From: a virus
Lineage: Duplodnaviria > Heunggongvirae > Uroviricota > Caudoviricetes
Length of the DNA stretch: 64,000 nt
Virus record (IMG/VR): IMGVR_UViG_3300029747_000004
Direction: 5' to 3' (one strand)
Under the pieces are notes generated by a model. That model was not told the origin of the DNA. It saw nothing but the letters and a program-made list of their open reading frames with translations, and ran no database searches. Within the stretch, counting starts at the first letter, position 1; each line of letters begins with the position of its first letter. A program made the position numbers and the translations under genes. Positions 2,000 to 57,361 of this stretch are shown here, in pieces.

Positions 2000-3541
2000 T
2001 TAATTATCATTTTTATTTCCGTCACGTGTCGCTTCGCCTTCATCAGATAATGGTGCATCAGACTCTGGCCTGCCATCAGAACCATCACCATTTTCAGATA
2101 GTCCAGCACTTTGCACATTGCTTGAAACAAGCGGAGTTGCCCATGACATAGTTCCAATTCCAAGGGCATTTTCTATAAAAGACATTCCACGTTCTTTTAC
2201 CGGGTTCACATTAGTTAAGGATGCCAATTCAAGTTTAACTGGAACACTATATTGTGCAAGTTTCAATAGCTTATCCACTCTATCATCAATAAAATATGGA
2301 GAAATATCACTGTATTCAACAATCATACCAGTTTCTCCAAGATGATTTAAAATCCATAGATTTTGCCACGCATTAATCTGCTCTATAGGAGCCATCGCAT
2401 CCATAGAGTCAAATTGAAGTGCCAATTTAAAACTTGTACTATTAGTAATTTTATTTTGATTTAGAACAATACCACCATTAGCATTAATAATATTTTCATA
2501 AGCTTTAGAAATAATATTAACATCATTAGCATTATTGCTATTAAAATCTATACTATCAAGTTTCATTGGAGACATTGCTAAAGCAACGTTATCTGGAACA
2601 GCAGACTGTAATTTCTGATAAAATGCATTTGCTAAATCAAGATCAATTTCAAAATCATCAACATCTTTTGTACCAGAAATTGTATCAATTTTTGCATAAA
2701 TAAGTTTATATGCCTCTAATTTATCCTTTAAATCTTGAACCGCCTGCAAATCTGCAAGACTAATAATCCCATCAAATAATCCAGAAAGTGGCGGAACTGG
2801 ATAATCTAAGTTATCTATGTTAATCTTTAAACAGAACGTATTCTCAATAGGAAGTTCCGCCCATCTCTGCGTGTTATCACTTTTATATTTATTATACAAT
2901 TTCTTAAAAATAGGGTCGTATACATCTAAATAATAAGAATTTGTACCAGAATCAAAGAATGAGCAATCAAACGCGAAATTTAGCACACCTCTGTAATACT
3001 GCTGACTTGAAATTTTACAATAATCCGGGTCAAGCAAATGTATAAAAAACGTTCCATCTTTTTCGGGGTCGCCATAACAGAACCCGTACACAACGTCGTT
3101 CTTCCAAGCCTGAAGCATACACTTCAAAATCTGACTTTTCATATCCATATTACGTACATACTTTGTAACACGCTCATAATTCTGTAATACACTATTCTGA
3201 TCAGGATCTTCTGTAAGTGGAATATCTGGATATACCGTCCACGACTTGCAATTAATTTGATATGCTTTAAAATTAATTAACCTTCTATATACATGAGATA
3301 CCGTATATAAATAATTCGAAAGTTTCCTAAGCTGTTTCTGGTTTGATTCACTTGCAGGATTCTTCAAATATGTACGTAAGCTGTCTCTAGAATACGTAGT
3401 GTATGTAATATTTTTATTTTTTGTCAAGTCAATAAGACTAAGCACGTCCTTCACAGCGGCAAACGCAGCTCTATTCTTTTCCTCACGACTTAACGTTTCA
3501 ATACGTTCCTTGTCTGTTAATTCTTTTGCCAAACTATTCAC
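2000..3541 (-). CDS. putative portal protein
   Basis: 513 aa immediately downstream of terminase large subunit; acidic/Gly-rich C-terminal tail typical of portals. Confidence 0.5.
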   Translation of the reverse strand: MNSLAKELTDKERIETLSREEKNRAAFAAVKDVLSLIDLTKNKNITYTTYSRDSLRTYLKNPASESNQKQLRKLSNYLYTVSHVYRRLINFKAYQINCKSWTVYPDIPLTEDPDQNSVLQNYERVTKYVRNMDMKSQILKCMLQAWKNDVVYGFCYGDPEKDGTFFIHLLDPDYCKISSQQYYRGVLNFAFDCSFFDSGTNSYYLDVYDPIFKKLYNKYKSDNTQRWAELPIENTFCLKINIDNLDYPVPPLSGLFDGIISLADLQAVQDLKDKLEAYKLIYAKIDTISGTKDVDDFEIDLDLANAFYQKLQSAVPDNVALAMSPMKLDSIDFNSNNANDVNIISKAYENIINANGGIVLNQNKITNSTSFKLALQFDSMDAMAPIEQINAWQNLWILNHLGETGMIVEYSDISPYFIDDRVDKLLKLAQYSVPVKLELASLTNVNPVKERGMSFIENALGIGTMSWATPLVSSNVQSAGLSENGDGSDGRPESDAPLSDEGEATRDGNKNDN

Positions 3542-3549
3542 CGCCTTTC

Positions 3550-5577
3550 TTATCCGAATAATTTCTCCAATGGTTTCCCAGGATTAACTTGTAATTTTGA
3601 TAATATATCTATTGCGTTTGGCTTTTTCCTAGTTACCAAATGTTCTCTACGGAGCTGTTGCAACAAATATGCAGCCATCGCGCAGACGTAAGCTCTATCG
3701 TCATGCAATTTATTCGCCTTGTCTGGAGCTAAATCAAATCTATCACCGCCAGAAGACTGTTTAAACCTATAGATATTAACAAGCTCCGTTTTCATTAAAT
3801 CAATCTGTTTTAACGCAACCTCTTCATCTAAATCTAAATTATATTGCTCTCTGACAATCTCTATACCTTTTTTGCTAAGTTCTTTAACTTCTTTTTCAGT
3901 GGGCTCTATGAACCTTTGTGTTTTAATGCCGGTTTTTGTATTCAAATCGTACATAACCATAATATACCCACGATTATCATACTCATTAGGCCAATCAATT
4001 AAATTCATATCCATCATTTCAATTAAAGCTCTAAACATTTCAACCTTATATTTAGCTGGTTGAAGTAATCGCATCTTATCAGTAATAGCATTTGGATACA
4101 ATTTATATTCTTCTGGACTATATTCTTTGTCAATTAAACCTCTATGTATGTTTCCGTTTTCATCTTTCCAGTCTTCCCACATGAAATCTGAAATATTTAC
4201 ACCAGATCCGCCGCTACCAGCATCTATATAAAGTCCTAAAATATTTTCATAATCAGCAACGCCTTCTCCATTATAGGCCAATAAAAGTCTTTTTAACTCT
4301 TTGATTTGATTTGGTGTAGTCATAGGGGTCTTTTTTTTCTTCATGGTATTAAGCAAATTAACTACATTTTGAATTCTCATCTTCCATCCAACAATTGGAT
4401 CTTCATAATATTCTGCACATAAAATAACAGAGTTATCTGCACTTCTAGCAGGGTCATATAGTAGAGCAAATTTGCTTTTACTATCATCATTTCTTAATCT
4501 TGGGGGACGAGATACAGAGTTTCTGATAATAGCTGCTCTTTTAATAATCTGACCATCGCCGCCTTCAGAAGTGAAAATATTTTTATATTCTCGCAACGCA
4601 GCTTCTTTGTCAACCCTCATAGCCTGGTCTACCTTTTCTTGTGTAAGAAGAGGTACAGGCCATATTTTGCCATGAACAGTTGCTCCAATTACTACATCGC
4701 TTGATATGTCCGCGCAGAAATACCGTCTATCTCCAGCAAACATCTTGATCGAAAACTCTCTATATTTTTTAAAAAAATATTGGTCTGTGCGCCCAGCAGA
4801 AGAACAGTATAACAACTGGTTTGGGAATGGTTTCGGCTCTGCAAGTAAATCTTCTGCGCTAAAATCTTTACCCGCTTTAAACTCTGAGTTCTGAGTAGTA
4901 AACGGTTCAGATGTATGAAACAACTCATCCGGGGCATTCATAGCCTCATCATAGACATTTAAATTCGACCTCTTAGACCTATTGTTGTCAAATGCACCAT
5001 TCAACGTAAAACATTGGCTACCGCCATATGTCCTTACTGTATATGAAGCAGGGTTATGTATCCAACCATTAGAATTAGCCTGAGACTTTACAACATTACT
5101 TTGAAAAATATCATTTAAATTCGTAAATGAAGATATATTTTTTAAGGCGAAAGCTTCCATTTTTAAAAACATTTCAATTGATTGTGAGCCAACACCGGCA
5201 AGTATATATGCTTTAAAATTCGGTATAAGCATCATTTTATCCATTACAAATAAGGACGCTCCTATACTCTTACCGCCGTTACGACTCATCGCCCATACTG
5301 CAAATGGCACATTCCAACTTGAATCAAATAAATATCTCTGATAGTCTAATAATTGCACATTAAATATTTCTTCACAAAAACGTGTTGGGTTTCTTCTACC
5401 CCACTGCAAAAACTCAGACAACTCCAGTTTTTCGTTATATCTTTTTGTAGTCATATTATATAAATTAGGACGCACAAACGGATGGTCATATCCATAATCT
5501 TCTATAATATCATCTATTGTTTTGTAATCTTTAATTAAATTTTCGTCATATATGGGAGCAATATCAATCACTATCAA
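3550..5577 (-). CDS. terL: terminase large subunit
   Basis: 675 aa; Walker A-like AMSRNGGKS, Walker B-like NVYDEAMN, C-terminal nuclease-like region; gene order TerS-TerL-portal. Confidence 0.7.
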   Translation of the reverse strand: MIVIDIAPIYDENLIKDYKTIDDIIEDYGYDHPFVRPNLYNMTTKRYNEKLELSEFLQWGRRNPTRFCEEIFNVQLLDYQRYLFDSSWNVPFAVWAMSRNGGKSIGASLFVMDKMMLIPNFKAYILAGVGSQSIEMFLKMEAFALKNISSFTNLNDIFQSNVVKSQANSNGWIHNPASYTVRTYGGSQCFTLNGAFDNNRSKRSNLNVYDEAMNAPDELFHTSEPFTTQNSEFKAGKDFSAEDLLAEPKPFPNQLLYCSSAGRTDQYFFKKYREFSIKMFAGDRRYFCADISSDVVIGATVHGKIWPVPLLTQEKVDQAMRVDKEAALREYKNIFTSEGGDGQIIKRAAIIRNSVSRPPRLRNDDSKSKFALLYDPARSADNSVILCAEYYEDPIVGWKMRIQNVVNLLNTMKKKKTPMTTPNQIKELKRLLLAYNGEGVADYENILGLYIDAGSGGSGVNISDFMWEDWKDENGNIHRGLIDKEYSPEEYKLYPNAITDKMRLLQPAKYKVEMFRALIEMMDMNLIDWPNEYDNRGYIMVMYDLNTKTGIKTQRFIEPTEKEVKELSKKGIEIVREQYNLDLDEEVALKQIDLMKTELVNIYRFKQSSGGDRFDLAPDKANKLHDDRAYVCAMAAYLLQQLRREHLVTRKKPNAIDILSKLQVNPGKPLEKLFG

Positions 5578-50771: not shown

Positions 50772-50794
50772 CATTAGAAAGTATTGACAAATAA

Positions 50795-50823
50795 TGGAAA
50801 TCATGATATAATCAATATTGTAC
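50795..50823 (+). promoter_or_regulatory. sigma70-type promoter (TTGACA-17-TATAAT) feeding tRNA cluster 1; duplicated at 54600
   Basis: ttgacaaataatggaaatcatgatataat, near-identical to 54600-54628. Confidence 0.5.
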
Positions 50824-51360: not shown

Positions 51361-51527
51361 AGTCGTGTAGCCAAGTGGTAAGGCACGGGACTTCGTAGAA
51401 TAGTTTAAAAGTAAAACACTCTATCGAAGGATAGACCTTTACTGGATAACAAAGAGATGTTTGTGCAAGACAAACTTCTACGTCCATGACTCCCGGATCG
51501 TTGGTTCGAACCCAACCACGACTGCCA
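51361..51527 (+). tRNA. tRNA-Gln(UUG) gene interrupted between nt 34/35 by a 93-nt class-II tRNA-like insert
   Basis: Acceptor AGTCGTG/CACGACT plus GCCA, D-loop AAGTGGTAA, anticodon stem CGGGA/TCCCG, T-arm GTTGG-TTCGAAC-CCAAC; loop after removing insert = CTTTGAC. Confidence 0.45.
51394..51486 (+). tRNA. nested class-II (long variable arm) tRNA-like gene, anticodon uncertain (loop CGAAGGA)
   Basis: Acceptor CGTAGAA/TTCTACG plus TCCA, D-arm GTTT-AAAAGTA-AAAC, anticodon stem TCTAT/ATAGA, variable arm CTTT..AAAG, T-arm GTTTG-TGCAAGA-CAAAC. Confidence 0.4.
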
Positions 51528-51559: not shown

Positions 51560-52327
51560 TTGAGTAATATGACAGATGGAAATGTTGGCAAGAGAATCGG
51601 AATTTATGATGTACTATATGAATGTGATGAAAAGCGTAACGATGGGCATAAGTTATATCATGTAAGGTGTGTATTTTGTGGTTGGGAAACTGACATGCAA
51701 CTCAGTGATGCAAAGAGAGCTGCTAAATGTACACATTACAATAAATTAACACAAGAACAAAAAGATGCTTGGTACGATAAAAATAAAAAGCAGTGTTTGT
51801 ATTGCGGAAAAGACATTCCATTTAATGAAAGATGTCAAAGTGAATATGTAATAAAAAATTTTTGTAATCAAAGTTGCGCTGCATCTTATAACAACAAGGG
51901 AGTTAGAAGAAATCACAAAGATGGTAGGGACTATAATGTAAAATATTGTTTAAATTGTGGAAAAGAGATCTCATATAAAAATAAATATTGCTCTTCTAAG
52001 TGCCTGCAAGATTATCGGCATAAGCAATACATAGAACGGTGGAAGAATAGCATTGAAGACGGAATAGTGGGAGAATATCAAATTTCAGACCACATTCGAA
52101 GATATTTGTTTGAAAAATATGATAATAGATGCTCAATATGTGGATGGAACAAAATTAATGAATTTACTGGAAATGTACCGCTTGAAGTCCATCATATAGA
52201 CGGAAATTACACTAATAATACAGAAAGCAATCTGCAATTGCTTTGTCCAAACTGCCATTCCCTGACGAAAACCTACAAAGCAGGAAACATAGGAAGTGGC
52301 AGAAAAGGACGTCAAAAATATAATTAA
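51560..52327 (+). CDS. HNH homing endonuclease (paralogue of 53833..54597)
   Basis: CSICGW...EVHHIDGNYTNNTESNLQLLCPNCH; shares N-terminal block with 53833 product. Confidence 0.7.
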   Translation: MSNMTDGNVGKRIGIYDVLYECDEKRNDGHKLYHVRCVFCGWETDMQLSDAKRAAKCTHYNKLTQEQKDAWYDKNKKQCLYCGKDIPFNERCQSEYVIKNFCNQSCAASYNNKGVRRNHKDGRDYNVKYCLNCGKEISYKNKYCSSKCLQDYRHKQYIERWKNSIEDGIVGEYQISDHIRRYLFEKYDNRCSICGWNKINEFTGNVPLEVHHIDGNYTNNTESNLQLLCPNCHSLTKTYKAGNIGSGRKGRQKYN

Positions 52328-52380
52328 ACAATACAAAATGAATGGTTGGCAAACCAGTTTAAACAAAGCTTCCACAGCAT

Positions 52381-52464
52381 GCCGTGGTCGCATAGTGGTC
52401 GAGTGCATCAGTTTTGTAATCTGACAGCGAAAGCTCATCATAGGTTCGAATCCTATTCACGGCT
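52381..52464 (+). tRNA. class-II tRNA (84 nt, long variable arm), anticodon ambiguous (loop TTTTGTAAT; GUA/Tyr or UGU)
   Basis: Acceptor GCCGTGG/TCACGGC, D-loop TAGTGGTCGAG, variable arm AGC-GAAA-GCT, T-arm ATAGG-TTCGAAT-CCTAT. Confidence 0.5.
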
Positions 52465-52538
52465 GACTACAATTCCTCACCTTCACGTGGTGTAGTTGTT
52501 TAAACTAACGAGGAAATTAACAACGGAGGTACAAAACA

Positions 52539-52661
52539 ATGACTAAGACCGTAGAAATGCTTCAGGCACGAATCAATCTTCTAAAGCAGCGCGATCCTGT
52601 AGGAAATGCAAATATCATTCGAAAGATCCAGCGTGAAATTCGAAAACTAGAAGGAAATTAA
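52539..52661 (+). CDS. small hypothetical protein (40 aa) between tRNAs
   Basis: RBS AACGGAGGTACAAAACAATG. Confidence 0.25.
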   Translation: MTKTVEMLQARINLLKQRDPVGNANIIRKIQREIRKLEGN

Positions 52662-52676
52662 ATAACATGGTGGGAT

Positions 52677-52760
52677 GGCAGAGTTTGATTTAATGCACTA
52701 GATTCGAAATCTAGCGTGCTTTTAGGAGCACCGTGGGTTTAAATCCCACTCCTGCCGCCA
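52677..52760 (+). tRNA. tRNA-Ser(CGA), class II, encoded CCA; atypical D-arm and TTTAAAT T-loop
   Basis: Anticodon arm CTAGA-TTCGAAA-TCTAG, variable arm GTGCT-tttagg-AGCAC, T-arm GTGGG-TTTAAAT-CCCAC, 3' TCCTGCC-G-CCA. Confidence 0.5.
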
Positions 52761-53296
52761 GAGGGTTGGTGTATCCTGCGGAACTACTGCAAACACCGAG
52801 GCAACAGGCAATGTCTCGCTATGAAAATAGCAAAGATGTGGAACCGGATTTTACTAAAGCATAGTTCAGGACAATATGCGGAGTTAGTCGGAATTAAATG
52901 AGGAAACCCTGAGATCTACACATCAACCTGTTATGGGGGTAGGCTCCGAGAGCTAGCAGGAGAGCAAGGGCCTGTGGAAGTTTGGTTTGACTCCAGATGC
53001 CTCCACCACAACCGCAAGATGTGTTATGCGGTATAAAAATGACGAAACATCCTTTAAGGGTAGGGGATCTGAAATGTGAATCCAGCCACTTAAAGTGAGT
53101 CCTATAGCCCATGATACTAACGGACTATGCGTGAATGGGTGATTTATCACTCTAAAAAGTATCTGAAACGCTAGGCAAATTTGTTCGATGATAGTAAGCG
53201 CTACGCTACTATATAGTGTTTACCGGAGAATCCCTGTTGGTTATCGCTTATCCACAAGGTAGCTAGGATTTAATCTGAAAGAAAAAGCGAATTTAT
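52761..53296 (+). ncRNA. ORF-free GC-elevated block between tRNAs: candidate large structured ncRNA(s) (for example ROOL/GOLLD-type, group I intron, or tRNA-like modules ending in CCACCA)
   Basis: ~530 nt with no credible ORF on either strand, GC well above genome average, multiple GC helices, tRNA-like 3' end GCCTCCACCA at ~52985-53007. Confidence 0.3.
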
Positions 53297-53448
53297 TGTC
53301 CACTAGCTCAATTTGGTGAGAGCCACGGCCTTGATGGATTCATTTCGGGATAGTGTAGTTCAAATCTATGATCCATCACAAATAAGCCGTAAGCCCTAAC
53401 AAGGCATAGTCTGGGTTCGAGGCCCAGGTGGACTACCAGCCATGCTGA
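53297..53448 (+). tRNA. tRNA-like gene (loop CTT/ATAA if spliced, anticodon UAU?) interrupted after nt 34 by a ~50-nt acceptor/T-arm minihelix insert; encoded ACCA
   Basis: Acceptor TGTCCAC/GTGGACT, D-arm GCTC-AATTTGGTGA-GAGC, anticodon stem ACGGC/GCCGT, T-arm CTGGG-TTCGAGG-CCCAG; insert GATGGAT...ATCCATC with TTCAAAT loop. Confidence 0.35.
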
Positions 53449-53650
53449 CTTCGCATGTAAAACCAGTTGAGAAGAAACTGCTCGAAAGGTTATATAATAC
53501 GCAAATGGTGGCTGTCCGACGGCGCGGTTCGAGTCCGCAAGCTATAGGTTATATAATTCAAGTTAGTCTTCCGAGGCAATCCGAGTTCATCACGACTTTA
53601 TTAGAGTGATTGCTAAAGGATAAACGCAGGTGATGCTGTTAGTAGTCCAC

Positions 53651-53680
53651 GGTAGGTTCGGAGATACCCTACCATATTTT
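53651..53680 (+). terminator. hairpin GGTAGG-loop-CCTACC followed by ATATTTT (terminator-like) just before tRNA-Arg
   Basis: Direct reading. Confidence 0.35.
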
Positions 53681-53682
53681 AT

Positions 53683-53757
53683 GCAAGTATCGTCTAACGG
53701 ACAGGACATGAAGCTTCTACCTTCAGAATGAGAGTTCGACCCTTTCTACTTGCGCCA
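53683..53757 (+). tRNA. tRNA-Arg(UCU), encoded CCA
   Basis: Acceptor GCAAGTA/TACTTGC-G-CCA, anticodon arm TGAAG-CTTCTAC-CTTCA, T-arm GAGAG-TTCGACC-CTTTC. Confidence 0.6.
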
Positions 53758-53832
53758 TATTTGATTGTAGTATTAGTAGATACAAAAAGAGACAAATACG
53801 TCTAATGCACAATCTAATTAATTTAATTAGAG

Positions 53833-54597
53833 GTGTATTACAATATGAGAGTGGACCCGAATGCACACATAGGAGAACAATATGGAATATATGTAATTAA
53901 AAGCGTATCTGAAGAAAAAGACAAGTATGGACATTATATTTATAATGGTGTATGTAGTGAATGCGGATATGTTCATTCTGCAAAGTTGGATTATTTTAAA
54001 CGGAAACAGATCAATACATGTACTCACTTTAGTAAATTAACACAAGATCAGAAAGACGCCTGGTACGAAAAGAATAAAAAAGTTTGCTTATGTTGTGGGG
54101 AATATATTCCAATGGGCAATAAAACATTCTTTGAATATAAAATATCGAGATTTTGTAATCAAAATTGTGGCGCAATTTTCGCAAACAAAAATACAAAAAA
54201 GAAAACATATTATTGTCAAAAATGTGGTAAACCGATTGGATATGGCCATGATCAGTGTGGCAATAAACAGTTATGCGATGATTGCAACCCTTTTCGAGTT
54301 GATTGGGGCTTTATTACATACGGAGAAATGAAAAGCAGAAGAAAATATCAAGTTAATAGTAGAATCAGAGAAATTGCAAGAACATTATATAAAAACTCTG
54401 GAAGACCACAGATGTGTATGAATTGTGGGTATGATAAGCACTATGAAATTTGTCATATCAAAGGAATATCAACTCACTCAGATGATACATTTATATCAGA
54501 AATTAATAACATTGATAATTTGATTGCGCTATGTCCAAATTGCCACTGGGAATTCGACCACGGTTTGTTAGACTTGCAAGCGATAACACAATCTTAA
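53833..54597 (+). CDS. HNH homing endonuclease (paralogue of 51560..52327)
   Basis: CMNCGYDKHYEICHIKG...LIALCPNCHWEFDHG. Confidence 0.7.
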   Translation: MYYNMRVDPNAHIGEQYGIYVIKSVSEEKDKYGHYIYNGVCSECGYVHSAKLDYFKRKQINTCTHFSKLTQDQKDAWYEKNKKVCLCCGEYIPMGNKTFFEYKISRFCNQNCGAIFANKNTKKKTYYCQKCGKPIGYGHDQCGNKQLCDDCNPFRVDWGFITYGEMKSRRKYQVNSRIREIARTLYKNSGRPQMCMNCGYDKHYEICHIKGISTHSDDTFISEINNIDNLIALCPNCHWEFDHGLLDLQAITQS

Positions 54598-54599
54598 CT

Positions 54600-54628
54600 T
54601 GACAGAATACGGAAATCATGATACAATA
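54600..54628 (+). promoter_or_regulatory. sigma70-type promoter feeding tRNA cluster 2 (duplicate of 50795 module)
   Basis: ttgacagaatacggaaatcatgatacaat. Confidence 0.45.
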
Positions 54629-54721
54629 ACTACAGTTCAAGGGACAGTACAAAATGAATGGAAAGGCGCATGCAGCAAATGTTTAAGTTTAATATTTTGG
54701 TAAAATATGAAATAAACGCGT

Positions 54722-54844
54722 CTTGAGATATGGGAACGTCTGGACGACAGAATAAAGTGCACGGAGTGGGCGGCACGGACAGCAAATTTACATATGAAAT
54801 TACGGCATTAATTTTACTCCTTGGTTCAATTCCAAGGGTTCCCA
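54722..54844 (+). ncRNA. ~120-nt tRNA-like RNA (acceptor-like GGGAAC/GTTCCC closing helix, T-arm CCTTGG-TTCAATT-CCAAGG), Y-RNA/YrlA-like candidate
   Basis: Direct reading of complementary ends and canonical T-arm; long internal region with repeated CACGGA. Confidence 0.3.
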
Positions 54845-54864
54845 AATCCAACTAATTTTAATAT

Positions 54865-54992
54865 GCCGGTGGTAGCTTAACTGGATAGAGCGCGTACATC
54901 ACACAACGTGAAATGAAAATTTCGCGCACAGCAATTGAACAAGATAGGGCTGTTAACCCCGAGGTTGTTGGTTCGAGTCCAACACACCGGCA
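54865..54992 (+). tRNA. long tRNA-like gene (~125 nt) with internal GNRA-capped hairpin insert (CGTGAAAT-GAAA-ATTTCGCG); anticodon unresolved (GGGCTGTTAACCCC suggests GUU)
   Basis: Acceptor CCGGTGG/ACACCGG, D-arm GCTT-AACTGGATA-GAGC, T-arm GTTGG-TTCGAGT-CCAAC. Confidence 0.35.
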
Positions 54993-55275
54993 CAAGAGAA
55001 TAAAAGGCACTCACAGCAAATTTATATTAGAAGATTATAATGTGGTTTTATAGTAAGATAATAAGTGCCTTGATTATTGAAATGATAGAGAGACTAGCAG
55101 CAACTTTATTTAAAAAAGATATAAGTTATTATTGGTTCTGCCAGAAATGATATTTATGGTCTCTCGAAAAAAAATAAAATCTCCAAAGACATAAACAGCA
55201 ATCTTATATAACGACCTGACTTTTAACCAGACTACGTAAATGTGTGTCTTGAGATTTTAGAAATAAAATCAGATA

Positions 55276-56844
55276 ATGGAGGAAAGAGCAATGGAATTTA
55301 TGAACGCAGTAAAGCAGACTCTAAACAATGAATACAATATGTCCATCACTGAGAACGGAGCTGTTGGATTTAGAACTACTGGCAAGGAACTACTTGATCT
55401 TAATTTTGCGGTTGCTTCTCTTCGTAAGATGAGTGATGAGGAAGTAACTAAGAGATTTATGAAAGCATTTTGTGAGAATAAGATGCTGGCTATGCGTTGG
55501 TTGTTTTATGCTAGAGATGCAAGACAGGGGATCGGTGAGCGCAGACTATTTAGGGTTGTTATGAAACATCTTGTAGAATCTAATCCTGAAATGGTTATCC
55601 CTGTTATCAATCTGATTCCTGAATACGGTAGGTATGATGATTTGTGGTGTCTACTTGACAACGAGGAATCTGCAAAAGTTATATATCAGATTGTAGATAA
55701 ACAGCTTAAAGAAGATTGGGATAATATGAGTACTGGTAAGCCCATTTCTCTCACAGCCAAGTGGATGCCGTCAATTAACGCATCCTCTGAAAAGACTAAG
55801 GAATATGGTAAGAAGCTCTGCAAGGCACTTCACATGTCCGAACGTGAATATCGCAAGGCTCTCAGCAAGCTTCGTAAGTATCTCGATGTCGTTGAAGTTA
55901 AGATGTCCAACAAGGATTGGTCTGAAATCAAGTATGAAACAGTTCCTTCTCGTGCAAATCTTATCTATAACAGCGCATTCCTCAGAAATGATGAAGTACG
56001 TCGTAGGGAATATCTTGGAAAGCTTGAAAAAGGAGAAACGAAGATTAATGCGTCAACGCTTTTCCCCCATGATATTGTTCATAAATATGCTATTCACTAT
56101 GGGTGGAAATGTAGTCTAAATCAGAAGGACGCAACTATTGAGGCTCTGTGGAGGGCTCTGCCAGATACTGTAAACGGTTGCAGTAACACTATCGTTGTTG
56201 CTGATGGTTCTGGTAGCATGATAACTCAGGTTGACCGTAGTTCCAGTGTGACGGCACTTGAGGTTGCAAACGCACTTGCGATTTATTTTGCAGAACATTC
56301 TTCTGGTCAGTTTAAGGACAAGTACATTACTTTCTCTGAACGTCCACAAATCGTTGATTTCAGTAATGCCACTTCACTCCATGATAAGCTGCAGATTGCA
56401 CTGACACATGATGAGTGTGCGAATACCAATATTGAGAAGGTATTTGATCTGATTCTTGATACTGCGATTAAGAATAGAATGAAGCAGGAAAATCTTCCTC
56501 AGAATATTCTGATTATCTCAGATCAGGAATTTGATAGATGCGCTTCCTGTGGAAATAATAGATCATCGTGGGATTTTAAGAAACCGAACCAGAGGCTGTT
56601 CGATGTGATTGCTCAGAAGTATGCTAATGCAGGATACTCAATCCCAAGGTTAGTATTCTGGAACGTTAATAGTCGAACTGGCACAATCCCTGTAAAGGAA
56701 AATGAACTTGGTGTAGCACTTGTTAGCGGATTCTCTGTTAACATCGCCAAGATGGTTTTGAGCAACAAGCTTGATCCTTATGAGTGCCTACTCGAAACTC
56801 TGAACTCTGAGCGCTATGCTCCAATTGAAGCTGCGCTGAGTTAA
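55276..56844 (+). CDS. rsr: Ro60/Rsr orthologue (TROVE domain plus vWA domain with MIDAS)
   Basis: 522 aa; N-terminal helical region with LFYARDARQGIGERRLF; C-terminal VVADGSGSM (DxSxS MIDAS), ITFSE, ILIISDQEF, RLVFWNVNSRTG...GFSVN colinear with human Ro60 LLAVDVSASM ... VAFSDE ... FIVFTDNETF ... KLIVCGMTSNG...GFDTG. Confidence 0.65.
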   Translation: MEERAMEFMNAVKQTLNNEYNMSITENGAVGFRTTGKELLDLNFAVASLRKMSDEEVTKRFMKAFCENKMLAMRWLFYARDARQGIGERRLFRVVMKHLVESNPEMVIPVINLIPEYGRYDDLWCLLDNEESAKVIYQIVDKQLKEDWDNMSTGKPISLTAKWMPSINASSEKTKEYGKKLCKALHMSEREYRKALSKLRKYLDVVEVKMSNKDWSEIKYETVPSRANLIYNSAFLRNDEVRRREYLGKLEKGETKINASTLFPHDIVHKYAIHYGWKCSLNQKDATIEALWRALPDTVNGCSNTIVVADGSGSMITQVDRSSSVTALEVANALAIYFAEHSSGQFKDKYITFSERPQIVDFSNATSLHDKLQIALTHDECANTNIEKVFDLILDTAIKNRMKQENLPQNILIISDQEFDRCASCGNNRSSWDFKKPNQRLFDVIAQKYANAGYSIPRLVFWNVNSRTGTIPVKENELGVALVSGFSVNIAKMVLSNKLDPYECLLETLNSERYAPIEAALS

Positions 56845-57081
56845 TAAATCTTAAACCGTGGTCGCTCCACATTCTATAAGGTTATATCAATTTTAGTATT
56901 AATGCTGCATTGGGTGTCGCTCATTCATGTAAGTCAAACATTATCTAGAAATTGTAGTTAGTAATAGAAAATAATCCAAAGGAGGATTTTGCTTATGATT
57001 GTATCTGCTTATTCTGATTTGGAGGACGAGCCGAAGGGCTAGTCTATGTCCCGAGTAAGACATAAAACTGCTCAATTATAT

Positions 57082-57203
57082 GGCCATGTAGCCCAATTGG
57101 AAGAGGCAACAGACCGTCGATAGCCAGAGCGTAGCGAGGTCATCACTTGCATCGACGACCATTAAAATCTGTACAGGTATGGGTTCGAATCCCATTATGG
57201 CCA
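57082..57203 (+). ncRNA. tRNA-like RNA (~120 nt) with a ~50-nt hairpin (CGTCGAT...ATCGACG) in place of/inside the anticodon loop; Y-RNA/YrlA-like or intron-containing tRNA candidate
   Basis: Acceptor GGCCATG/TATGGCC, D-arm GCC-AATTGGAAG-GGC, stem ACAGA/TCTGT, T-arm ATGGG-TTCGAAT-CCCAT. Confidence 0.35.
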
Positions 57204-57361
57204 AAGTAGCAATATCAACAACCTCCACGTGGTGCTACTTGGGTAATGCTAATAGTTGATAGGCGCGTAATGGTGCTGGACTGGCCTGATTGGGGAGAGT
57301 CGTTTCGAATAATCTTCTGTGTGGAGAAGATAAAATACCAATCACCACACATTTATATTAT

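What the first reader, a model, noticed from the sequence alone, without database searches (positions are those of the whole stretch)
52761..53296. ~0.5-1 kb GC-rich, ORF-free block between tRNA genes: candidate large structured ncRNA
From the end of tRNA-Ser (52760) to the third interrupted tRNA and on to tRNA-Arg (53683), there is no credible ORF on either strand (the track shows only short minus-strand ORFs). GC is clearly above the genome average and many GC-rich helices are present. At least one tRNA-like 3' terminus (…GCCTCCACCA near 53000) occurs. A perfect DnaA-box-like TTATCCACA sits at 53239. Large ornate RNAs such as ROOL, GOLLD and HEARO-like, and group I introns, are typically found in phages next to tRNA arrays.
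Basis: seen in the sequence. Interest (0 to 1): 0.6.

Follow-up and report, generated by a model that had tools for sequence, protein, structure and literature searches.

The report
Drum RNA inside phage tRNA island
The gene-free stretch is not one giant RNA but a chain of separate small folded RNAs sitting in a phage's tRNA gene cluster; one is a divergent copy of the known "drum" RNA, whose function is still unknown, and the others belong to no described family.

Summary
The block is real. It has no credible ORF, its GC is 0.437 against 0.358 for the window, and it lies between tRNA-Ser and tRNA-Arg on the + strand of an uncultivated phage. It is not one large ornate RNA. Rfam finds no ROOL, GOLLD, HEARO or group I intron. 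It does find a drum RNA (RF02958) at 53183-53294, at 59.1 bits against a gathering score of 43.

Comparison with about 25 related phage contigs shows a mosaic of independently inherited modules:
- block A, 52761-52928, with 6 compensatory pairs against its one homologue;
- a tRNA-like element without an anticodon arm that ends in CCA, 52935-53009;
- "module X", 168 nt, 53010-53177, with 13 variants;
- drum.

This drum copy differs from the canonical copies I sampled in gut Clostridia. Those carry a terminator and often precede a Y-family polymerase gene. This copy has no terminator and a changed P2 loop, and it sits inside a tRNA array, as does a similar copy in an unrelated 146-kb phage contig.

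The most likely mechanism, which is inferred, is co-transcription with the tRNAs and release by tRNA-processing enzymes. The function remains unknown. The case is moderately interesting.

The parts
50784..50812 (+). Perfect sigma-70-type promoter (TTGACA-17-TATAAT with TG) upstream of the first tRNA. It is the candidate start of the island transcript.
   Evidence: The next strong + promoter is at 54599-54627, and no + strand terminator-like site lies between them. This is a consensus match only, and such matches are not enriched over shuffled sequence.
52669..52760 (+). tRNA-Ser(CGA) with encoded CCA, forming the 5' flank of the block.
   Evidence: ARAGORN; Rfam tRNA at 48.5 bits.
52761..52928 (+). 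Block A: a 168-nt multi-hairpin RNA of no known family, including a GAAA-capped hairpin.
   Evidence: It is absent from most relatives. One homologue exists, L095 2833-3000, at 79.8% identity. RNAalifold predicts 44 pairs, 6 of them kept through changes on both sides, which accounts for 12 of the 32 substitutions. No Rfam match.
52935..53009 (+). tRNA-like element with a 7-bp acceptor stem, D arm, T arm and an ACCA end. A conserved 16-nt linker (CAAGGGCCU...) takes the place of the anticodon arm.
   Evidence: Read directly from the sequence. Not called as tRNA by ARAGORN or Rfam. Across 8 variants, 96.9% of cells in the 16 named pairs are paired, and the acceptor and T stems are 100% paired with G.U<->G-C changes. 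The D stem changes from GCUC/GAGC to GCUU/AAGC in L106. The shuffle control is not significant.
53010..53177 (+). Module X: a conserved 168-nt structured RNA candidate of no known family.
   Evidence: It is 94-97% identical in related phages, with a 73%-identical variant in L100/L027. There are 13 distinct versions. The consensus has 42 pairs, 98.3% paired, with 3 compensatory pairs. Two hairpins vary in length, and in L099 one is truncated to a GAAA-capped stub. Its boundaries are sharp and its upstream and downstream neighbours vary. No Rfam match. There is one copy in the window and none in distant Ro-gene phages.
53183..53294 (+). Drum RNA (Rfam RF02958), a divergent copy without a terminator.
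   Evidence: 59.1 bits against a gathering score of 43, E=1.6e-8, full-length 1-112. 21 of 23 consensus pairs are canonical and P3 is fully swapped in a compensatory way. 32 of 46 highly conserved positions match. It contains the TTATCCACA at 53248-53256.
53297..53440 (+). Interrupted tRNA forming the 3' flank: a cloverleaf with a 49-nt hairpin inserted in the anticodon loop, a long variable arm and an encoded CCA.
   Evidence: The MFE fold is a cloverleaf plus an inserted hairpin. ARAGORN in intron mode calls 53297-53438 with a 49-nt intron. It starts 3 nt after the drum.
53441..53682 (+). Block D: a further conserved structured RNA of about 240 nt that contains a T-arm-like hairpin.
   Evidence: 85-87% identical in relatives. 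RNAalifold predicts 69 pairs, 4 of them compensatory, including UUAUAUAA/UUAUAUAA against UUAUGCAA/UUGCAUAA.
53683..53757 (+). tRNA-Arg(UCU), the end of the ORF-free stretch.
55276..56844 (+). Ro-like RNA-binding protein (DUF2828 + DUF7788 + VWA). This is context only and is not shown to be a partner.
   Evidence: Pfam. PHROG 850 'RNA-binding protein' at E=4e-136. Homologues at 31-33% identity are annotated 'Ro-like RNA binding protein' in mycobacteriophages. There is no direct sequence match to solved Ro60 structures.

Best explanation
The block is a string of independent small structured RNAs inside the phage's tRNA/ncRNA island (about 50.8-57.5 kb, + strand). In order they are:
- block A, 168 nt;
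- a tRNA-like element that lacks an anticodon arm, 75 nt;
- module X, 168 nt;
- a divergent drum RNA, 112 nt.

An interrupted tRNA, block D and tRNA-Arg follow.

Shown:
- the drum assignment;
- the modular, mosaic inheritance;
- structure-preserving substitutions in block A, module X and block D;
- the absence of coding potential.

Inferred:
- The RNAs are co-transcribed with the tRNAs from the strong promoter at 50784 or an internal one.
- They are cut out by the enzymes that mature the neighbouring tRNAs. RNase P cleavage at the 5' end of the tRNA that begins 3 nt after the drum would make the drum's 3' end. This would replace the intrinsic terminator that canonical drum copies carry.
- The CCA-ending tRNA and tRNA-like elements upstream of block A and module X would mark their 5' ends.
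- The released RNAs then act in trans as stable RNAs. The drum would act through its conserved, largely unpaired core (GGAG...GGUU...UAUCCACAA...UAG...GAAAGAAAA), binding a partner that is still unknown.
For: Drum assignment:
- 59.1 bits against a gathering score of 43, E=1.6e-8, full-length.
- 21 of 23 pairs are canonical, and all three P3 pairs are swapped in a compensatory way relative to the consensus.
- A sister copy (62.1 bits) with the same variant core CCACAAGGYAGCUAGG lies between tRNA-His and tRNA-Asn in an unrelated 146-kb phage contig, L110.
- A 63.8-bit copy lies 350 nt from a tRNA-Tyr in L115.
- A 35-bit drum-like element lies in the tRNA island of L027/L100.

Mosaic inheritance:
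- Block A and the drum are absent from most relatives.
- The tRNA-like element plus module X is present in many relatives, and module X occurs with three different upstream partners.

Structure:
- Block A has 6 compensatory pairs out of 44, from 32 substitutions.
- Module X is 98.3% paired, with 3 compensatory pairs and hairpin length variation.
- Block D has 4 compensatory pairs.

Non-coding.

Transcription unit:
- A perfect promoter at 50784-50812, with no + strand terminator before 54599.
- Spacers are 5 nt between module X and the drum, and 3 nt between the drum and the tRNA.
Against: - No expression or end-mapping data exist. Processing by RNase P or RNase Z is inference from adjacency.
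- The promoter and terminator scans are consensus matches only.
- Covariation is shallow. Block A rests on two sequences, most module X pairs never vary, and the tRNA-like element does not beat the shuffle control.
- Folding energies are not exceptional.
- The drum copy lacks the conserved P2 loop motif and 14 of 46 conserved positions, so it could have lost the ancestral function.
- The function of drum RNAs is unknown in the literature.
Confidence: 0.6

Rival explanations
1. The RNAs in the block are Y-RNA-like partners of the phage Ro-like protein encoded 2 kb downstream. The tRNA-like element would play the role of the YrlA tRNA-mimic domain, and module X or the drum would provide the protein-binding part.
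For: - A Ro-like gene (DUF2828/VWA) lies at 55276-56844 on the same strand, 2.0-2.5 kb away. This is within the 4-kb, same-strand rule that Chen et al. 2014 reported for YrlA.
- The block contains a tRNA-like element.
- Module X also lies 2.2-2.5 kb upstream of Ro-like genes in L101 and L105, where the protein is only 35% identical.
- Ro-like genes sit next to tRNA arrays in diverse phages.
Against: - No drum at gathering score in 17 other Ro-gene loci.
- No module X in the 10 distant Ro-gene phage loci searched.
- L098 and L108 have module X but no Ro-like gene within about 8 kb downstream.
- L110 has a drum but no Ro-like gene within the 6.5 kb fetched.
- The YrlA motif GNCGAAN0-1G is absent from 52761-53683 on the + strand.
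- The co-location can be explained by both features simply living in the tRNA island.
Confidence: 0.12
2. Apart from the drum, the block is non-functional debris: decayed tRNA genes, intron remnants and recombination scars left by homing-endonuclease traffic in the tRNA island.
For: - HNH endonuclease genes flank the block at 51560-52327 and 53833-54597.
- Relatives carry different cassettes at the same junctions. L001 has an HNH-motif ORF where the window has the drum.
- The tRNA-like element looks like a tRNA that lost its anticodon arm, and its 3' end carries indels.
- Folding z-scores are weak.
Against: - Module X is 94% identical between phages whose Ro-like proteins are only 35% identical, and it keeps a 42-nt invariant core.
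- Substitutions in block A, module X and block D preferentially preserve pairing.
- Hairpins change length or are recapped with GAAA rather than decaying.
Confidence: 0.15
3. The whole block is one large ornate RNA of the ROOL, GOLLD or HEARO type, or a group I intron.
For: It is an ORF-free, GC-enriched stretch in a phage next to tRNAs. A related contig, L100, has a sub-threshold group I intron hit elsewhere in its island.
Against: - No match to any such family at E<=10.
- The block is a mosaic of separately inherited pieces.
- One piece is a complete small known RNA.
- No interrupted host gene flanks the block.
Confidence: 0.04
4. The TTATCCACA marks a DnaA-dependent origin or regulatory DNA site, or the block encodes small proteins.
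For: One perfect 9-mer at 53248-53256. Minus-strand ORFs of 72 and 65 aa.
Against: - A single box is what chance gives (expected 0.95), and it coincides with the conserved drum core.
- No cluster of boxes was seen.
- The ORFs have no family match, they cross module boundaries, and variants carry indels that are not multiples of three.
Confidence: 0.02

Closest known systems
drum RNA motif (Rfam RF02958; Weinberg et al. 2017, PMC5737381)
   Same: The full-length covariance-model match is above the gathering score. The P1-P4 helices and most of the unpaired conserved core are present.
   Different: - There is no 3' intrinsic terminator.
- The P2 terminal-loop motif is changed.
- The core reads AAGGUAGCUAG instead of AAaCcGaaUAG.
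- It is embedded in a tRNA array.
- There is no Y-family polymerase gene. In my sample, 33 of 67 canonical copies sit directly upstream of one, and only 1 of 67 has a tRNA within 1 kb.
Small stable RNAs of the phage T4 tRNA gene cluster (species 1 and 2, rnaC/rnaD). This comparison rests on my own knowledge, not on a tool result.
   Same: They are non-tRNA stable RNAs of unknown function, encoded among phage tRNA genes and matured from the same precursors. This is the working model proposed here.
   Different: There is no sequence relationship: blastn of 52660-53760 against 50,697 phage records found nothing. Processing has not been demonstrated for this window.
Bacterial and phage Y RNAs (YrlA) with Ro60/Rsr (Chen et al. 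2014, PMC4201824)
   Same: A tRNA-like module lies within 4 kb of, and on the same strand as, a Ro-like gene.
   Different: There is no GNCGAAN0-1G motif. No closing Ro-binding stem was identified. The tRNA-like element has open acceptor ends with CCA, whereas in YrlA the acceptor-like stem is closed. The RNAs do not track Ro-like genes across phages.
ROOL, GOLLD, HEARO and group I introns
   Same: The phage and tRNA-adjacent location.
   Different: No covariance-model match. The pieces are 75-170 nt each rather than 400-800 nt. The inheritance is modular.
tRNA-like structures without an anticodon arm, such as the tmRNA tRNA-like domain and acceptor/T-arm minihelices (own knowledge)
   Same: Acceptor stem, T arm and CCA end are present without a decoding arm. 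These are the minimal features recognised by RNase P and by 3'-end enzymes.
   Different: It is a free-standing 75-nt unit with a D arm and a conserved 16-nt linker. No mRNA-like part is present, and ARAGORN finds no tmRNA.

Membership tests
drum RNA (RF02958) | Covariance-model score at or above Rfam's gathering score, over the full model length | tested here: met
   59.1 bits against 43, E=1.6e-8, model positions 1-112 of 112.
drum RNA (RF02958) | Consensus helices P1-P4 can form | tested here: met
   21 of 23 pairs are canonical. P3 is CGC/GCG against the consensus GCG/CGC, and CGU/ACG in L110.
drum RNA (RF02958) | Highly conserved nucleotides of the core (GGAG, GGUU, ACCACAA, UAG, GAAAGAAAA) | tested here: met
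   32 of 46 upper-case consensus positions match, and the long runs GGAG, GGUU, CCACAA, UAG and GAAAGAAAA are all present.
drum RNA (RF02958) | Conserved P2 terminal-loop motif (GuguCgGuAugC) | tested here: not met
   Only 1 of 5 highly conserved loop positions matches. By eye, the loop matches that of the L110 subclass copy at 7 of 12 positions.
drum RNA (RF02958) | Rho-independent terminator at the 3' end (Weinberg 2017) | tested here: not met
   No + strand terminator-like site was found. A tRNA starts 3 nt downstream. Of the 12 canonical copies whose downstream sequence I printed, most show a terminator, but L018 does not.
drum RNA (RF02958) | Association with a particular neighbouring protein. 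It is stated but not named in the main text of Weinberg 2017. In my sample it is a Y-family DNA polymerase. | tested here: not met
   33 of 67 canonical loci have an IMS/IMS_C gene a median of 51 nt downstream. The window has none. No drum-proximal protein family is shared with the drum's neighbourhood in the window.
ROOL / GOLLD / HEARO | Covariance-model match | tested here: not met
   Nothing at gathering score in the window, and nothing at E<=10 in 52300-53800.
ROOL / GOLLD / HEARO | One contiguous conserved RNA of several hundred nucleotides | tested here: not met
   The modules are gained and lost independently among relatives.
Group I intron | Match to RF00028, and interruption of a host gene | tested here: not met
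   No hit at E<=10. The flanks are a complete tRNA-Ser and complete RNA modules.
Y RNA (YrlA type) | Encoded within about 4 kb of, and on the same strand as, a Ro60-like gene | tested here: met
   The block lies 2.0-2.5 kb upstream of 55276-56844 on the + strand.
Y RNA (YrlA type) | GNCGAAN0-1G motif and a Ro-binding stem formed by the RNA's two ends | tested here: not met
   The motif does not occur in 52761-53683 on the + strand. No such closing stem was recognised in the tRNA-like element, which has free CCA ends.
Y RNA (YrlA type) | tRNA-like domain with D and T arms | tested here: inconclusive
   52935-53009 has both arms, with 96.9% of cells paired across 8 variants, but the shuffle control is not significant.
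Y RNA (YrlA type) | Physical binding to the Ro-like protein | not testable with these tools
   This needs RIP or CLIP from infected cells.
tRNA | Cloverleaf with an anticodon arm, for the element at 52935-53009 | tested here: not met
   ARAGORN does not call it and Rfam tRNA gives no hit at E<=10. A 16-nt unpaired linker replaces the anticodon arm and variable loop.

The most novel reading that the evidence does not exclude
The window's drum belongs to an undescribed subclass of drum RNAs that has no terminator and is embedded in tRNA arrays. The subclass is also seen in IMG/VR contig 3300032167_000051 and, more weakly, in L027/L100. The drum sits beside three further unclassified structured RNAs: block A, a tRNA-like element without an anticodon arm, and module X. 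Together they would form a phage 'RNA island'. Its non-tRNA members would be released by tRNA-processing enzymes and would serve phage RNA repair or anti-defence, possibly with the neighbouring Ro-like protein.
Probability: 0.3. Interest if true: 0.7.

Novelty: new variant of a known kind. Interest (0 to 1): 0.42.

Why it matters
Drum is one of the widespread bacterial RNA motifs singled out in 2017 as likely to have a sophisticated biochemical function, and nothing has been published on that function since. Finding copies spliced into phage tRNA arrays, without the terminator and without the usual neighbouring gene, makes an obligate cis-regulatory role less likely. It points instead to a stable, trans-acting RNA that exists independently of its neighbours. 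It also offers a tractable setting, a phage infection, in which to look for its partner. The block further yields at least two new conserved RNA candidates, module X and block A, and a tRNA-like element. It adds to the evidence that phage tRNA islands carry many non-tRNA RNAs. The practical lesson for annotation is that 'empty' gaps in phage tRNA clusters are mosaics of small RNA modules, not single giant RNAs.

Tried and rejected
- Rfam at a permissive threshold gave nothing for ROOL, GOLLD, HEARO, group I/II introns, tmRNA or RNase P.
- blastn of the block against 50,697 phage records found no match.
- Drum as a partner of the Ro-like gene: no drum at gathering score in 9 related and 8 diverse Ro-gene loci, so I rejected a general link.
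- Module X as a conserved Ro-associated RNA: my covariance model R1 finds it only in the close phage group.
- An alternative helix GUGGA/UCCAC in place of the acceptor stem of the tRNA-like element: I dropped it once the alignment showed substitutions rather than a register shift.
- An early idea of a pseudoknot AGUCC/GGACU + CCCAU/AUGGG in module X is not supported, because U->C/A changes occur opposite an invariant partner.
- Pattern scans for the window's exact drum variant in IMG/VR found nothing.
- One scan hit, L093, was a chance match inside a coding region, and L104 likewise.
- A search for a protein family shared between drum neighbourhoods and the window found none near the drum.
- The supplementary text of Weinberg 2017 that names the drum-associated protein is not held.
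- I did not run a structural test of the Ro-like protein. There is no direct sequence match to PDB Ro60, so that label rests on Pfam, PHROG and annotations of homologues.

Full report
**Observation**

The window is an uncultivated phage. Its terminase-like protein is only 26% identical to its best match, in Bacillus phages. Close relatives are IMG/VR and human-gut metagenome contigs of about 130-170 kb.

ARAGORN and Rfam place tRNA-Ser(CGA) at 52669-52760 and tRNA-Arg(UCU) at 53683-53757 on the + strand. Between them, the longest ORFs are 72 and 65 aa on the minus strand and 55 aa on the plus strand. None has a Pfam or PHROG match.

GC of 52761-53296 is 0.437 against 0.358 for the window, the 94th percentile. 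GCCTCCACCA is at 52999-53008. TTATCCACA is at 53248-53256, not 53239, and one copy is what chance gives (expected 0.95). Folding energies of the pieces are not exceptional, with z-scores of -0.8 to -1.7. The descriptive part of the finding therefore holds, with one coordinate correction.

**What Rfam says**

At gathering thresholds the only non-tRNA match in the window is drum RNA, RF02958, at 53183-53294 on the + strand. It scores 59.1 bits against a gathering score of 43, with E=1.6e-8, over the full model length.

A permissive scan of 52300-53800 at E<=10 adds nothing relevant. There is no ROOL, GOLLD, HEARO, group I/II intron, tmRNA or RNase P match.

In the drum alignment:
- 21 of 23 consensus pairs are canonical.
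- The three P3 pairs are all swapped in a compensatory way.
- 32 of 46 highly conserved positions match.
- The runs GGAG, GGUU, CCACAA, UAG and GAAAGAAAA are all present.

The conserved P2 loop motif is not kept, and no terminator follows.

**The block is a mosaic**

I retrieved nine related loci through the Ro-like protein at 55276-56844, and further loci through DNA patterns. Alignment against them shows sharp module boundaries:
- 52653-52928 (tRNA-Ser plus block A) is missing from most relatives. It is present in L095.
- 52929-53177 is 94-97% identical in many relatives.
- 53178 to about 53353/53409 (the drum plus the 5' part of the next tRNA) was found in no other contig.
- 53441-53682 (block D) is again conserved, at 85-87%.

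At the place where the window has the drum, relatives carry other cassettes. In L001 this is an ORF with an HNH motif, read by eye. A single large RNA is therefore excluded.

**The modules**

*Block A (52761-52928).* It has one homologue, at 79.8% identity. RNAalifold predicts 44 pairs. Six are kept through changes on both sides, which accounts for 12 of the 32 substitutions. The changes include GCUAU-GAAA-AUAGC to ACUAC-GAAA-GUAGU and GCAUA...UAUGC to GCACG...CGUGU. The support is strong for a single pair of sequences, but it is still only two sequences.

*The tRNA-like element (52935-53009).* It has:
- an acceptor stem GGGGGUA/UGCCUCC;
- a discriminator A and CCA;
- a D stem GCUC/GAGC;
- a T arm UUUGG-UUUGACU-CCAGA;
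- a conserved 16-nt linker where the anticodon arm should be.

Neither ARAGORN nor the Rfam tRNA model detects it. Across eight variants the acceptor and T stems stay 100% paired, with several G.U<->G-C changes. L106 shows GCUU/AAGC in the D stem and a canonical UUCAAUU T loop. The shuffle control is not significant, so this is consistent with the proposed structure rather than proven.

*Module X (53010-53177).* It has 13 distinct versions.
- Its boundaries are sharp, and a 42-nt core is invariant.
- Two hairpins vary in length. L100 has insertions of +18 and +19 nt, and L099 has a stub capped with GAAA.
- The consensus has 42 pairs, 98.3% paired, three of them compensatory. One of these is a long-range pair that is C-G in 7 sequences and U-A in 5.
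- Its upstream partner varies. It is the tRNA-like element, a real tRNA (L100), or an unrelated sequence (L096/L101 type).

*Block D.* It has 69 predicted pairs, four of them compensatory.

**Drum elsewhere**

A strict core pattern recovered 3 viral and 64 gut-Clostridia genomic copies. The three viral ones, checked with Rfam, score 92-101 bits. In that sample:
- 33 of 67 have a Y-family DNA polymerase gene (IMS + IMS_C) a median of 51 nt downstream on the same strand.
- Most of the 12 copies whose downstream sequence I printed are followed by an intrinsic terminator.
- Only one has a tRNA within 1 kb.

The window has no such polymerase. It shares no drum-proximal protein family with the other loci.

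A looser pattern found copies that resemble the window's:
- L110/L113, from a 146-kb phage contig, has a 62.1-bit drum between tRNA-His and tRNA-Asn. It carries the same variant core CCACAAGGYAGCUAGG and a P3 of CGU/ACG.
- L115 has a 63.8-bit drum 350 nt upstream of tRNA-Tyr. A skipping-rope RNA lies 730 nt upstream of that drum, next to a beta-CASP RNase gene.
- A related phage, L027/L100, has a 35-bit drum-like element in its tRNA island.

The window's copy therefore belongs to a recurring variant embedded in tRNA arrays. The pattern-based sampling is biased, so the frequencies are indicative only.

**The Ro-like gene**

ORF 55276-56844 is DUF2828 + DUF7788 + VWA and matches PHROG 850 'RNA-binding protein'. 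Homologues at 31-33% identity are annotated 'Ro-like RNA binding protein'. In diverse phages this gene sits beside tRNA arrays, separated by ORF-free gaps. This raised the idea that the block encodes Y-RNA-like partners (Chen et al. 2014).

Evidence against that idea:
- No drum in 17 other Ro-gene loci.
- No module X outside the close phage group.
- Module X occurs without a Ro-like gene within 8 kb in L098 and L108.
- The YrlA motif GNCGAAN0-1G is absent from the block.

Evidence in favour:
- The block meets the same-strand, within-4-kb rule.
- Module X also lies upstream of Ro-like genes that are only 35% identical.

I keep this as a minority rival.

**How it most likely works**

A perfect sigma-70-type promoter lies at 50784-50812, the next strong one is at 54599-54627, and no + strand terminator-like site lies between them. 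The modules are separated by 0-6 nt and are bracketed by tRNAs or CCA-ending tRNA-like elements.

From this I infer a polycistronic precursor that is cut by the tRNA-maturation machinery. RNase P cleavage at the tRNA that starts 3 nt after the drum would create the drum's 3' end, replacing the terminator of canonical copies. This resembles the stable RNAs of the T4 tRNA cluster (own knowledge).

What the released RNAs do is unknown. The absence of a downstream protein gene and of a terminator argues against a cis-regulatory role for this drum copy.

**Limits**
- There are no expression data.
- Covariation is shallow.
- Sampling through exact patterns is biased.
- The protein that Weinberg et al. 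associate with drum is named only in a supplement that is not held.

**Verdict**

The finding is a real non-coding, structured region, but the 'large ornate RNA' reading is wrong. It contains a divergent member of a known family of unknown function, in an unusual and recurring context, plus several unclassified small RNA modules.

Noticed in passing
window 51361-51527, 53297-53438, 54865-54993, 57081-57204 (+): Four tRNA genes are interrupted by 30-93-nt insertions in the anticodon loop (ARAGORN intron mode; Rfam calls 57082-57203 as a 122-nt tRNA). The insert at 53297-53438 is a hairpin that contains a T-loop-like UUCAAAU, so it resembles an acceptor/T-arm minihelix. Relatives have many 110-150-nt 'tRNA' hits. 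The splicing mechanism is unknown.
   Followed up: partly
L027 about 3490-3640 (-), the same region as in L100: A complete tRNA-Asn(GUU) with CCA is nested inside the anticodon loop of another tRNA. Removing it leaves a perfect CUUUUAA loop, that is, tRNA-Lys(UUU). I read this from the sequence. ARAGORN calls only the inner tRNA. I found no description of this in the held literature.
   Followed up: partly
L029-L092 (gut Clostridia genome contigs): Canonical drum RNA plus a terminator lies directly upstream of a Y-family DNA polymerase gene (IMS/IMS_C) in 33 of 67 loci, a median of 51 nt away on the same strand. This looks like a leader arrangement.
   Followed up: partly
L115 2615-2693 and 3423-3532: Skipping-rope RNA (66.5 bits) and drum RNA (63.8 bits) lie 730 nt apart in one phage contig. 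They sit just downstream of a beta-CASP/RMMBL RNase gene and upstream of tRNA-Tyr.
   Followed up: no
window 54599-55275 and 56845-57080: ORF-free stretches flank the Ro-like gene. The first follows a TTGACA-17-TACAAT promoter and holds an interrupted tRNA and a T-arm-like hairpin at 54818-54845. The second contains a GCCGAAGG match to the YrlA motif at 57030. These are better places to look for a true Y RNA.
   Followed up: no
L014 3268-3332; L017 2966-3028: Partial tRNA-model hits that lack the acceptor stem (model positions 10-63 and 6-65) lie upstream of Ro-like genes in a Campylobacter phage and a Bacillus phage. They are possible YrlA-like tRNA mimics.
   Followed up: no
L002 3209-3300, and the same position in L001, L003, L004, L008, L009: Where the window has tRNA-Ser plus block A, relatives carry an odd element of about 90 nt. 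It has GCGGCG/CGCCGC ends followed by GCCA and internal T-arm-like hairpins, and it is not called as a tRNA.
   Followed up: no
L025 872-928, L101 172-228, L105 1228-1284, L108 8679-8735: Recurrent sub-threshold matches to cow-rumen-4 RNA (35-36 bits against a gathering score of 48.5) lie about 550-650 nt upstream of module X in one sub-group of relatives.
   Followed up: no
L100 5044-5251 (-): A sub-threshold group I intron match (40.4 bits against a gathering score of 50, E=8e-7) lies at the edge of a related phage's tRNA island.
   Followed up: no
L012 1249-1599: Enterococcus phage EfsSzw-1 has a full tmRNA match (150.5 bits) in its tRNA island, which is not among the record's annotated features. 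It lies upstream of the phage's Ro-like gene.
   Followed up: no
window 52381-52464: tRNA-Thr(UGU) is 84 nt long because of a 12-nt extra arm, which is unusual for a threonine tRNA. The feature is conserved in L001, L003, L095 and L103.
   Followed up: no
window 52539-52661: A 40-aa ORF with a good ribosome-binding site (GGAGG, then 8 nt, then ATG) sits between tRNA-Thr and tRNA-Ser. It is 82-92% conserved at the DNA level in relatives and has no family match.
   Followed up: no
window 51560-52327 and 53833-54597: Two free-standing HNH endonuclease genes with zinc-finger-like N-termini lie inside the tRNA island. They probably drive the cassette shuffling seen among relatives.
   Followed up: no
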